From the NCBI RefSeq assembly GCF_009931435.1, contig NZ_CP043414.1: a DNA stretch of 64,000 bases. One strand, 5' to 3'. Source of the DNA: Escherichia coli. GTDB lineage: Bacteria > Pseudomonadota > Gammaproteobacteria > Enterobacterales > Enterobacteriaceae. Below are positions 53,863 through 54,307 of this stretch, piece by piece. The translations under genes were made by a program, and so were the position numbers. The notes under the pieces were generated by a model. That model made no database searches. It was not told the origin of the DNA and saw only the letters and a program-made list of their open reading frames with translations. Numbering within the stretch: position 1 is the first letter of the stretch; each line of letters opens with the position of its first letter.

Positions 53863-54219
53863 AGTCGCTGCCATTTATTCAGATAAAGAGTGCGTGGATG
53901 GTAGCAGAATTTCGCTTTGCTTACCGCCTGTTGTTAAGTGATTTGATCGATGGTTGTTAATGATGTCAACGATGGCGCAAAAATTGCCCGCTTTTGGTGC
54001 GCGCTGCGTCAGAATGGCGCAGTAATTTCCAGTAAATTTCGTCAATGATCACAATTCCAGAATTATATTTTACTTTTGCATAATATTGCGTTTTTTATTC
54101 TTTCTATTCACCATCATCGCAAACATATTCACTTTTTATGCACTTTAAATGCATAGCGTACAGTTATAACTCCTTGATTATCAGTTAATCGCCCCCTTTT
54201 ATGCACTTTTATCACTGGC

Positions 54220-54235
54220 TGGCACGAACCCTGCA
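54220..54235 (+). promoter_or_regulatory. Sigma-54 (-24/-12) promoter of astCADBE
   Basis: TGGCAC-gaacc-CTGCA matches TGGCAC-N5-TTGCA, about 73 bp upstream of the astC ATG; ArgR-box-like TATTCAC repeats lie further upstream. Confidence 0.5.
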
Positions 54236-54307
54236 ATCTACATTTACAGCGCAAACATTACTTATTATTAACATATAAATAACGAATCATTTACTGTAGA
54301 GGTCGCT

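What the first reader, a model, noticed from the sequence alone, without database searches (positions are those of the whole stretch)
54181..54307. Sigma-54 promoter upstream of astCADBE
TGGCAC-N5-CTGCA at 54220..54235 is a near-consensus -24/-12 element. The 430-bp xthA-astC intergenic region also carries TATTCAC-type ArgR-box-like repeats and AT-rich tracts, consistent with the known nitrogen- and arginine-responsive control. The five ast genes then overlap by 4-8 bp, indicating translational coupling.
Basis: partly seen in the sequence, partly recalled or inferred. Interest (0 to 1): 0.2.

Follow-up and report, generated by a model that had tools for sequence, protein, structure and literature searches.

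The report
Known sigma-54 promoter of astCADBE

Summary
The motif is real. CTGGCACGAACCCTGCA lies at 54219-54235 on the + strand, 72 nt before the astC ATG (54308). It is the only exact TGGCAC-N5-YTGCW match in the 64-kb window (0.21 expected).

The locus is E. coli xthA / astCADBE. All five ast genes pass NCBIfam cut-offs and overlap by 4, 4, 4 and 8 nt.

The same 17-mer is the published sigma-54 ChIP-seq site upstream of K-12 astC, listed there as experimentally confirmed in EcoCyc, with a predicted start 62 nt before the ATG (window 54246).

I checked conservation independently. In 58 AstC-orthologous loci from about 11 enterobacterial genera, the GG and GC dinucleotides sit at the same place, 71-73 nt before the ATG, while the spacer between them varies.

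Two NtrC-like sites lie at -253 and -233. They keep a 199-201 bp distance to the promoter in all 32 dereplicated sequences.

The ArgR-box claim is only partly supported. Single boxes are at chance level. A 21-bp-phased array of four weak boxes (54075-54155) is above chance (P about 0.006) and partly conserved.

Verdict: already known, correctly interpreted, low interest.

The parts
53056..53862 (-). xthA (exodeoxyribonuclease III), the divergent neighbour; annotated start at 53862
   Evidence: NCBIfam NF008733 scores 516 bits against a cut-off of 280. The annotation comes from a strain that is 100% identical here.
53863..54307 (.). xthA-astC intergenic control region, 445 bp, 37.8% G+C
   Evidence: It is 95.1% identical to K-12, and 17 of the 22 differences fall in 54103-54222.
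53985..54001 (+). NtrC-like enhancer site 1 (TGCCCGCTTTTGGTGCG), centred at -253 from the predicted start
   Evidence: It has 3 mismatches to TGCACC-N4-TGGTGCA. That is not above chance on its own. However, the TGC...GC positions are invariant or nearly so across 32 orthologous sequences. An NtrC ChIP-seq peak and an NtrC gSELEX peak are reported for this spacer in K-12.
54005..54021 (+). NtrC-like enhancer site 2 (TGCGTCAGAATGGCGCA), centred at -233, 20 bp from site 1
   Evidence: The distance from 54021 to the promoter GG is 199-201 bp in all 32 dereplicated orthologous regions.
53973..53988 (+). Secondary sigma-54-like GG-N10-GC element (TGGCGCAAAAATTGCC), formed at the junction of two NtrC-type half-sites
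   Evidence: It has 2 mismatches to the consensus, which is chance level. A low-stringency sigma-54 ChIP-seq peak is listed at the K-12 equivalent, ATGGCGCAAAAAATGCCC. Its function is not established.
54034..54072 (.). Most conserved block of the region: AAATTTCGT-N4-GATCACAATTCCAGAATTATATTTTA (-212 to -174). It contains a CRP-like half-site (GATCACA) and an ARG-like half-site (AGAAT); the binding protein was not determined here.
   Evidence: Phylogenetic footprint on 32 sequences.
54075..54155 (.). Phased array of four weak ARG-box-like 18-mers starting at 54075, 54095, 54116 and 54138. It includes the two TATTCAC copies at 54105-11 and 54126-32.
   Evidence: - The PWM was built from 9 K-12 arg operators.
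- The best single boxes score 11.1 and 10.7 bits, which is not above chance (P=0.22).
- The four-box array scores 17.6 bits against a null of -2.7 +/- 7.3 (P about 0.006).
- Boxes recur at 54075, 54116 and 54127 in 15, 12 and 24 of 32 orthologues.
54198..54210 (+). Conserved TTTATGCACTTTT immediately upstream of the -24 element; role unknown
54219..54235 (+). Sigma-54 core promoter CTGGCACGAACCCTGCA, with GG (-25/-24) at 54221-22 and GC (-13/-12) at 54233-34
   Evidence: It is identical to the K-12 ChIP-seq site OS17.
54237..54245 (+). TCTACATTT, a conserved sigma-S/-10-like element overlapping the start region; candidate for the stationary-phase promoter
   Evidence: Conservation is shown. 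The resemblance to the sigma-S -10 consensus is my own knowledge. RpoS dependence of ast is reported. The exact sigma-S promoter position was not verified.
54246..54307 (+). Predicted sigma-54 start (A at 54246) and 62-nt AU-rich leader; Shine-Dalgarno GAGG at 54299-54302
   Evidence: The start follows the rule of PMC4591121 (motif centre + 19; 62 nt to astC). The leader is not structured (z = +1.48). No Rfam match was found.
54308..55528 (+). astC (succinylornithine transaminase)
   Evidence: NF009047, 844 bits against a cut-off of 630.
55525..56559 (+). astA (arginine N-succinyltransferase); overlaps astC by 4 nt
   Evidence: NF007770, 732 bits against a cut-off of 521; junction.
56556..58034 (+). 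astD (succinylglutamate-semialdehyde dehydrogenase); overlaps astA by 4 nt
   Evidence: TIGR03240, 847 bits against a cut-off of 579; junction.
58031..59374 (+). astB (N-succinylarginine dihydrolase); overlaps astD by 4 nt
   Evidence: TIGR03241, 802 bits against a cut-off of 538; junction.
59367..60335 (+). astE (succinylglutamate desuccinylase); overlaps astB by 8 nt
   Evidence: TIGR03242, 478 bits against a cut-off of 306; junction.
60341..60364 (+). Hairpin ACCCGCAGAA-ATCA-TTCTGCGGGT just after astE; probable operon end
   Evidence: Read directly from the sequence. The terminator scan did not call it because the T-run is weak.

Best explanation
**What it is.** The element at 54219-54235 is the sigma-54 (RpoN) promoter of the astCADBE arginine succinyltransferase operon.

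**How it works.**
- RNA polymerase carrying sigma-54 docks on the GG (54221-22) and GC (54233-34) dinucleotides as a closed complex.
- Under nitrogen limitation, phosphorylated NtrC bound to the tandem sites about 253 and 233 bp upstream (53985-54021) contacts the polymerase by DNA looping. NtrC then uses ATP hydrolysis to open the promoter.
- Transcription starts near 54246.
- Arginine-bound ArgR, bound to weak phased ARG-like boxes in the loop (about 54054-54155), acts as an accessory, architectural activator ('superinduction').
- A sigma-S promoter in the same region gives stationary-phase expression.
- The five genes are then translated from one mRNA, with stop/start overlaps that favour coupled translation.

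**Shown here.** The motif, its statistical rarity, gene identities, overlaps, deep positional conservation and the fixed enhancer-promoter distance.

**Taken from the literature on the identical K-12 sequence.** Sigma-54 and NtrC occupancy, and the NtrC/ArgR/RpoS dependence.

**Inferred.** The exact ArgR, sigma-S and NtrC site coordinates, and the start position in this strain.
For: **Motif**
- It is present and unique in the window.

**Locus identity**
- The region matches E. coli xthA/astCADBE in 5424 of 5426 complete genomes.
- Annotation is; the proteins pass NCBIfam cut-offs.

**Identity to K-12**
- The 90 bp at 54198-54287 are identical to K-12.
- They are at least 95% identical in all 5424 genomes, while the adjacent spacer is only 80-90% identical in most.

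**Published binding data**
- K-12 sigma-54 ChIP-seq site OS17 is CTGGCACGAACCCTGCA, PSSM 11.29, predicted start 62 bp before astC, EcoCyc status 'confirmed'.
- The Salmonella astC site was enriched in ChIP-chip with PSSM 21.7, in a chromosome where only 21 sites score 18 or more.
- NtrC ChIP-seq and RpoN and NtrC gSELEX peaks fall in the astC/xthA spacer.
- ArgR is described as an accessory activator, and RpoS dependence is reported.

**My comparative test**
- All 58 orthologous loci with enough upstream DNA have CTGGCA[CT]...[CG]TGCA[AC]T ending 71-73 nt before the ATG, with a variable spacer.
- The footprint shows GCTGGCTGGCAC and TGCA to be invariant.
- The enhancer-promoter distance is 199-201 bp in 32 of 32 sequences.
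- A published conservation table agrees with this.
Against: - No transcription start, rpoN, ntrC or argR data exist for this strain. The primary paper (Kiupakis & Reitzer 2002, PMC135064) could not be read, so the site coordinates are my inference.
- The NtrC-like sites each have 3 mismatches and are at chance frequency as single sites.
- Single ARG boxes are not above chance.
- The published NtrC ChIP-seq peak interval sits over the promoter and leader rather than the -253/-233 sites.
- The -12 region has CTGCA rather than TTGCA. astCp is described as a weak sigma-54 promoter.
Confidence: 0.95

Rival explanations
1. The sigma-54 site is a poised or inert binding site. Most ast transcription in this lineage comes from the overlapping sigma-S/sigma-70-type promoter (TCTACATTT at 54237-54245). 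Bound sigma-54 holoenzyme would then act mainly as a competitor or insulator.
For: - The conserved -10-like element overlaps the predicted start.
- ast is RpoS-dependent in stationary phase.
- astCp is a weak sigma-54 promoter.
- Many sigma-54 sites are transcriptionally inactive in standard media.
Against: - The promoter is listed as experimentally confirmed.
- ast expression is reported as dominantly NtrC-controlled across a 1035-sample compendium.
- The conserved NtrC-like enhancer at a fixed 200-bp distance has no role in this reading.
- The two promoters are known to coexist, so this reading complements the main one rather than replacing it.
Confidence: 0.03
2. The motif is a chance match to the sigma-54 consensus in an AT-rich intergenic region and has no function.
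For: - 16 of 100 shuffles of the window contain at least one exact match.
- Matches with 2 mismatches are at chance frequency.
Against: - The position and the GG/GC dinucleotides are invariant in 58 of 58 orthologous loci, while the spacer varies.
- ChIP data exist in two species.
- The expectation for this strand of this intergenic region is about 7e-4.
Confidence: 0.01
3. The promoter is sigma-54-dependent but is driven by an enhancer-binding protein other than NtrC.
For: The upstream sites match the NtrC consensus only moderately, with 3 mismatches each.
Against: - NtrC ChIP-seq and gSELEX peaks are reported at this spacer.
- ast clusters with NtrC-controlled ddp genes.
- In Enterobacter, Leclercia and Lelliottia the same positions read as perfect NtrC half-sites, GGTGCA and TGCACC.
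Confidence: 0.01

Closest known systems
E. coli K-12 astC sigma-54 promoter (NtrC-activated, ArgR-assisted; Kiupakis & Reitzer 2002; ChIP-seq site OS17 of Bonocora et al. 2015)
   Same: - The 17-mer CTGGCACGAACCCTGCA is identical, as are the 90 bp around it (54198-54287).
- The distance to the ATG, the divergent xthA neighbour, the operon order and the gene overlaps are all the same.
   Different: - The window is a divergent lineage, about 95% identical to K-12 over 10.5 kb. Only 3 of 5426 complete genomes are at least 99% identical in the intergenic region.
- It has 22 substitutions in the intergenic region, mostly in the 54103-54222 spacer.
- One substitution (A to T at 53984) brings the secondary GG-N10-GC element closer to the consensus.
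Salmonella Typhimurium astC sigma-54 promoter (Samuels et al. 2013; Lu & Abdelal 1999)
   Same: The GG/GC elements and the flanking TGGCACGAA...CTGCAAT are the same. It is enriched in sigma-54 ChIP-chip, assigned to NtrC, and activated by ArgR.
   Different: - The spacer is TG instead of CC.
- Several ARG-like half-sites read TGAAT where E. coli has TGCAT.
NtrC-dependent promoters that use an architectural protein in the loop, e.g. glnHp2 with IHF
   Same: Both are weak sigma-54 promoters with a distant tandem NtrC enhancer and a DNA-binding helper protein between enhancer and promoter.
   Different: - The helper here is the arginine-sensing ArgR rather than IHF, so the loop responds to a second signal.
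- The enhancer is unusually far away, about 200 bp from site edge to GG, and that distance is tightly fixed.
yeaGH sigma-54 promoter (same window, 28904-28920, - strand)
   Same: It is a second NtrC-regulon sigma-54 promoter in this window. Its sequence, ATGGCATGAGAGTTGCT, is identical to K-12 ChIP-seq site OS18.
   Different: It drives a different operon (PrkA-family kinase yeaG and yeaH), and ArgR is not involved.

Membership tests
Sigma-54 (RpoN)-dependent promoter | GG at -24 and GC at -12, exactly 10 bp apart, within TGGCAC-N5-TTGCW | tested here: met
   The sequence is TGGCAC-GAACC-CTGCA, with one departure from the consensus (C for T at -14). It is the only exact TGGCAC-N5-YTGCW match in the window.
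Sigma-54 (RpoN)-dependent promoter | Located upstream of a gene, on the same strand, at promoter distance | tested here: met
   The motif ends 72 nt before the astC ATG, on the + strand, in an intergenic region.
Sigma-54 (RpoN)-dependent promoter | The -24/-12 dinucleotides are conserved at the orthologous position while the spacer is free to vary | tested here: met
   58 of 58 orthologous loci from about 11 genera have the motif, 71-73 nt before the ATG. Spacers include AACC, AAGG, ATCG and CCCT. A published conservation table agrees.
Sigma-54 (RpoN)-dependent promoter | An upstream enhancer with binding sites for an enhancer-binding protein (here NtrC) | tested here: inconclusive
   - Two sites with 3 mismatches each lie 20 bp apart at -253 and -233.
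- Single sites of this quality occur at chance frequency.
- Their key positions are conserved, and their distance to the promoter is fixed at 199-201 bp.
- NtrC ChIP-seq and gSELEX support comes from K-12.
Sigma-54 (RpoN)-dependent promoter | Occupancy by sigma-54 holoenzyme in vivo | not testable with these tools
   Reported for the identical 17-mer in K-12 (ChIP-seq, FAT 7) and for the Salmonella orthologue (ChIP-chip ratio 4.0).
Sigma-54 (RpoN)-dependent promoter | An rpoN- and activator-dependent transcript starting about 12 nt downstream of the GC | not testable with these tools
   EcoCyc status 'experimentally confirmed' is relayed by PMC4591121. The predicted start is 54246.
astCADBE (arginine succinyltransferase pathway) operon | Five genes in the order C-A-D-B-E, each matching its equivalog model | tested here: met
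   All five exceed the curated NCBIfam cut-offs. Order and synteny with xthA and spy are as in K-12.
ArgR operator (tandem ARG boxes) | 18-bp palindromes close to TNTGAATWWWWATTCANW | tested here: inconclusive
   - The best boxes score 11.1 and 10.7 bits, against a leave-one-out median of about 15 for 18 canonical boxes.
- The maximum score is not above chance (P=0.22).
ArgR operator (tandem ARG boxes) | Boxes arranged in tandem with a period of about 21 bp | tested here: met
   - A four-box array with offsets 20/21/22 starting at 54075 scores 17.6 bits against a null of -2.7 +/- 7.3 (P about 0.006).
- The two TATTCAC copies are 21 bp apart.
- TGAAT/TGCAT interchange between genera occurs at the half-sites.
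ArgR operator (tandem ARG boxes) | Arginine-dependent ArgR binding | not testable with these tools
   The literature states that ArgR binds and superinduces ast. The exact footprints could not be read.
Translationally coupled operon | Stop and start codons overlap, with a ribosome-binding site inside the upstream gene | tested here: met
   The junctions are ATGA x3 and ATGGATAA. Each start is preceded by GGAGG, GAGGAG, GAGGAGG or GGGAGG. Coupling itself was not measured.

The most novel reading that the evidence does not exclude
The enhancer itself may contain a second, weak sigma-54 docking site (53973-53988, TGGCGCAAAAATTGCC), created where two NtrC half-sites abut.
- A low-stringency sigma-54 ChIP-seq peak is listed at the K-12 equivalent.
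- The same spot reads GGTGCAATATTTGCAC in Enterobacter-group genera.
- In this rare lineage an A-to-T change gives it a consensus TTGC.

If real, holoenzyme parked on the enhancer could compete with, or pre-position for, NtrC. That would be an unrecognised layer in enhancer-promoter communication.
Probability: 0.07. Interest if true: 0.35.

Novelty: already known. Interest (0 to 1): 0.08.

Why it matters
It matters little as a discovery. The astC sigma-54 promoter has been studied since about 2002 and has been re-confirmed by genome-wide ChIP.

The check is still useful in three ways:
- It validates a first-stage call made from sequence alone.
- It maps the promoter, enhancer, ARG-like array and leader onto this divergent E. 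coli lineage.
- It shows that the regulatory elements stayed fixed while the spacer DNA between them drifted, with the enhancer-promoter distance held to 200 +/- 1 bp across about 11 genera.

Tried and rejected
- **Primary paper.** I tried to read Kiupakis & Reitzer 2002 by DOI and by PMC id; it is not held.
- **Supplements.** None are held for the ArgR ChIP-exo paper, for the RpoS-level paper or for the sigma-54 insulation paper. The one file held for the NtrC ChIP-seq paper has no ast entry.
- **Sigma-70 scan.** The consensus scan of 53800-54400 found only one site, inside xthA, and that is below chance. It gives no help in placing the sigma-S promoter.
- **NtrC consensus.** With up to 3 mismatches there are 29 hits against 23.7 expected, so it is uninformative alone.
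- **Sigma-54 consensus.** With up to 2 mismatches there are 50 hits against 46 expected, so the secondary element is not supported by sequence alone.
- **Single ARG-box scoring.** It is not above chance.
- **CRP reading of the conserved block.** This rests on a by-eye comparison with the CRP consensus from memory, not a scan. The right half, GATCACA, is perfect, but the left half, TTCGT, is poor. I left it undecided.
- **Rfam.** The scan of 53700-54500 found nothing.
- **Small ORFs.** None in the intergenic region is credible.
- **Leader fold.** It is less structured than shuffles, so a riboswitch or attenuator reading was rejected.

Full report
**Observation**

The sequence reads ...tatcactggcTGGCACgaaccCTGCAatctacattt....

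It is the only exact match to TGGCAC-N5-YTGCW on either strand of the 64-kb window. The expectation is 0.21 per window. For one strand of a 445-bp intergenic region that scales to roughly 7e-4 (my arithmetic).

Against the stricter consensus TGGCACG-N4-TTGCW it has one mismatch, a C in place of the T before the GC.

**Locus**

A megablast of the intergenic region matches 5424 of 5426 complete E. coli genomes. Annotation of a 100%-identical strain and of K-12 places the motif between xthA (- strand, annotated start 53862) and astC (ATG at 54308). astA, astD, astB, astE and spy follow. XthA and all five Ast proteins exceed the curated NCBIfam cut-offs.

The gene junctions are ATGA, ATGA, ATGA and ATGGATAA, giving overlaps of 4, 4, 4 and 8 nt. 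Each start is preceded by a GGAGG-type ribosome-binding site inside the upstream gene. Translational coupling is a reasonable but untested inference.

The intergenic region is 445 bp by annotation, or 433 bp by the longest xthA ORF, with 37.8% G+C.

**What is already known about this sequence**

The window is only about 95% identical to K-12 over 10.5 kb. However, the 90 bp from 54198 to 54287 are identical to K-12.

- *Sigma-54 ChIP-seq in K-12.* Table 1 of Bonocora et al. 2015 (PMC4591121) lists peak OS17 with motif CTGGCACGAACCCTGCA, gene astC, a predicted start 62 bp before the start codon, and EcoCyc status 'experimentally confirmed'. Applying their rule (motif centre + 19) gives window position 54246, which is 12 nt after the GC.
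- *Salmonella.* The orthologous site TGGCACGAATGCTGCAAT was enriched in sigma-54 ChIP-chip. Its PSSM score is 21.7, in a chromosome where only 21 sites score 18 or more. The operon is assigned to NtrC.
- *NtrC and RpoN binding.* Brown et al. 2014 report an NtrC ChIP-seq peak at astCADBE. Shimada et al. 2021 found RpoN and NtrC gSELEX peaks in the astC/xthA spacer.
- *ArgR and RpoS.* Secondary sources summarise the primary work: ArgR is an accessory activator in the presence of arginine, astCp is a weak sigma-54 promoter, and the operon is also RpoS-dependent.
- *Limitation.* The primary paper (Kiupakis & Reitzer 2002) is not held. I therefore could not check the mapped start or the footprint coordinates.

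**Independent comparative test**

I scanned the genome collection with a pattern from the AstC N-terminus (ENFDEWM) rather than from the promoter, so the result is not conditioned on the motif.

- 59 loci encode AstC orthologues. They come from Escherichia, Citrobacter, Salmonella, Enterobacter, Leclercia, Lelliottia, Kosakonia, Phytobacter, Silvania, Pseudenterobacter and Huaxiibacter.
- In all 58 loci with at least 89 nt upstream, the best sigma-54 match is CTGGCA[CT]-...-[CG]TGCA[AC]T, ending 71-73 nt before the ATG.
- The spacer varies freely (AACC, AAGG, ATCG, CCCT and others). This is the pattern expected of a functional -24/-12 promoter.
- A published conservation table agrees.
- Within E. 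coli, the 90-bp core is at least 95% identical in all 5424 genomes. The adjacent 108-bp spacer is only 80-90% identical to the window in 5398 of them.

**Footprint of the whole control region**

I aligned 32 dereplicated upstream regions.

1. *Core promoter.* GCTGGCTGGCAC and TGCA are invariant.
2. *Downstream of the core.* TCTACATTTACAG (54237-54249) is nearly invariant. It resembles a sigma-S -10 element (my knowledge), which would fit the reported RpoS dependence. Its role is not shown here.
3. *Upstream of the core.* TTTATGCAC (54198-54206) is conserved; its role is unknown.
4. *NtrC-like sites.* TGCCCGCTTTTGGTGCG (53985-54001) and TGCGTCAGAATGGCGCA (54005-54021) are centred at -253 and -233.
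   - Each has 3 mismatches, and such matches occur at chance frequency (29 against 23.7 expected).
   - Their TGC/GC(A) positions are invariant or nearly so.
   - In Enterobacter-group genera the flanking half-sites read as perfect GGTGCA and TGCACC.
   - The distance from 54021 to the promoter GG is 199, 200 or 201 bp in all 32 sequences, although the sequence between them diverges.
   - That fixed distance is what a face-of-helix constraint on a DNA loop predicts.
5. *The most conserved block of all.* It is AAATTTCGT-N4-GATCACAATTCCAGAATTATATTTTA (54034-54072). It has a perfect CRP-type right half and an ARG-like half-site. I could not assign a binding protein.

**ArgR boxes**

I built an ARG-box matrix from the tandem operators of nine K-12 arg-regulon promoters: carA, argA, argE/C, argI, argR, argG, argD, argF and artJ.

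- *Single boxes.* The best boxes in the ast region score 11.1 bits (54075-54092) and 10.7 bits (54127-54144). Canonical boxes have a leave-one-out median of about 15. The maximum here is not above chance for this AT-rich composition (P=0.22).
- *Phased array.* An array of four boxes at offsets of 20-22 bp (54075, 54095, 54116, 54138) scores 17.6 bits against a null of -2.7 +/- 7.3 (P about 0.006).
- *Conservation.* ARG-like boxes recur at the aligned positions 54075, 54116 and 54127 in 15, 12 and 24 of 32 sequences, with scores up to 15.5 bits. Half-sites switch between TGAAT and TGCAT, the two forms seen in canonical operators. The first TATTCAC copy is poorly conserved, while the second is invariant.
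The sequence evidence for it is moderate, not strong.

**Other readings excluded**

- There is no Rfam family in 53700-54500.
- There is no credible small ORF in the intergenic region.
- The 62-nt leader is AU-rich and less structured than shuffled controls (z = +1.48), so there is no sign of a riboswitch or attenuator.
- The sigma-70 consensus scan found nothing useful.

**Mechanism**

The best-supported account is the established one.

1. Sigma-54 holoenzyme sits on the promoter as a closed complex.
2. Under nitrogen limitation, NtrC-phosphate at the -253/-233 enhancer loops to it and drives open-complex formation.
3. ArgR with arginine binds the weak phased boxes within the loop and boosts activation.
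4. A sigma-S promoter nearby serves stationary phase.
5. The five overlapping genes are translated from one mRNA.

*Shown here:* the motif, the gene identities, the conservation and the geometry. *From the literature on identical or orthologous sequence:* protein occupancy and genetic dependence. *Inferred:* the exact site boundaries and the start in this strain.

**Verdict**

The feature is already known, so interest is low.

The only mildly novel lead is a second GG-N10-GC element inside the enhancer (53973-53988). It coincides with a published low-stringency sigma-54 ChIP peak and is one base closer to the consensus in this lineage. On sequence alone it is at chance level.

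Noticed in passing
window 53973-53988 (+): TGGCGCAAAAATTGCC is a sigma-54-like GG-N10-GC element at the junction of two NtrC-type half-sites. The K-12 equivalent, ATGGCGCAAAAAATGCCC, is listed as a low-stringency sigma-54 ChIP-seq peak. The window carries TTGC where K-12 has ATGC. On sequence alone it is at chance level.
   Followed up: partly
window 54021-54221, and loci L003-L078: The distance from the proximal NtrC-like site to the promoter GG is 199-201 bp in all 32 dereplicated orthologous regions, although the sequence between them diverges. This suggests a strict loop-geometry constraint.
   Followed up: partly
window 54034-54072: AAATTTCGT-N4-GATCACAATTCCAGAATTATATTTTA is the most conserved stretch of the intergenic region, as invariant as the promoter core itself, across about 11 genera. 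It has a CRP-like right half and an ARG-like half-site. The binding protein was not identified here.
   Followed up: partly
window 28904-28920 (-): ATGGCATGAGAGTTGCT lies upstream of a PrkA-family kinase gene (yeaG, 26866-28800) and yeaH (25470-26753), with a predicted start 93 nt before the yeaG ATG. It is identical to the published K-12 yeaG sigma-54 ChIP-seq site, so the window holds a second NtrC-regulon sigma-54 promoter.
   Followed up: partly
window 23953-23968 (-): TGGCACGGTTTTTTCA has one mismatch to the sigma-54 consensus and resembles the glnH promoter. It lies inside a GGDEF-domain gene (23848-25323), in the sense orientation, upstream of dgcJ. It is not in the main tables of the K-12 ChIP-seq study.
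   Followed up: partly
window 51790-62290 versus K-12 (L002): The window is only about 95% identical to K-12 across 10.5 kb (astD 91.9%, astE 97.9%). Only 3 of 5426 complete E. coli genomes are at least 99% identical in the intergenic region, and the best match is strain 2017-02-2CC from Viet Nam. The source is a rare, divergent lineage or a recombinant segment.
   Followed up: partly
window 28912 to 54227, versus K-12: The yeaG and astC sigma-54 sites are 25.3 kb apart in the window but 34.7 kb apart in K-12. About 9.4 kb present in K-12 is therefore absent here, or was inserted in K-12.
   Followed up: no
L004 (Escherichia albertii NBRC 107761), position 1957 on the - strand of the locus: The position of the astC start codon reads ATA instead of ATG, and the -24 element reads CTGGCACAAACC. 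astC may be inactivated or use another start in this species.
   Followed up: no
window 54022-54036 (+): GTAATTTCCAGTAAA resembles a CpxR-type direct repeat (GTAAA-N5-GTAAA, from my own knowledge). One paper states that RegulonDB lists a CpxR site for astCADBE. It is only moderately conserved.
   Followed up: no
E. coli genome search: Two of the 5424 matches to the ast control region are on records labelled as plasmids rather than chromosomes.
   Followed up: no
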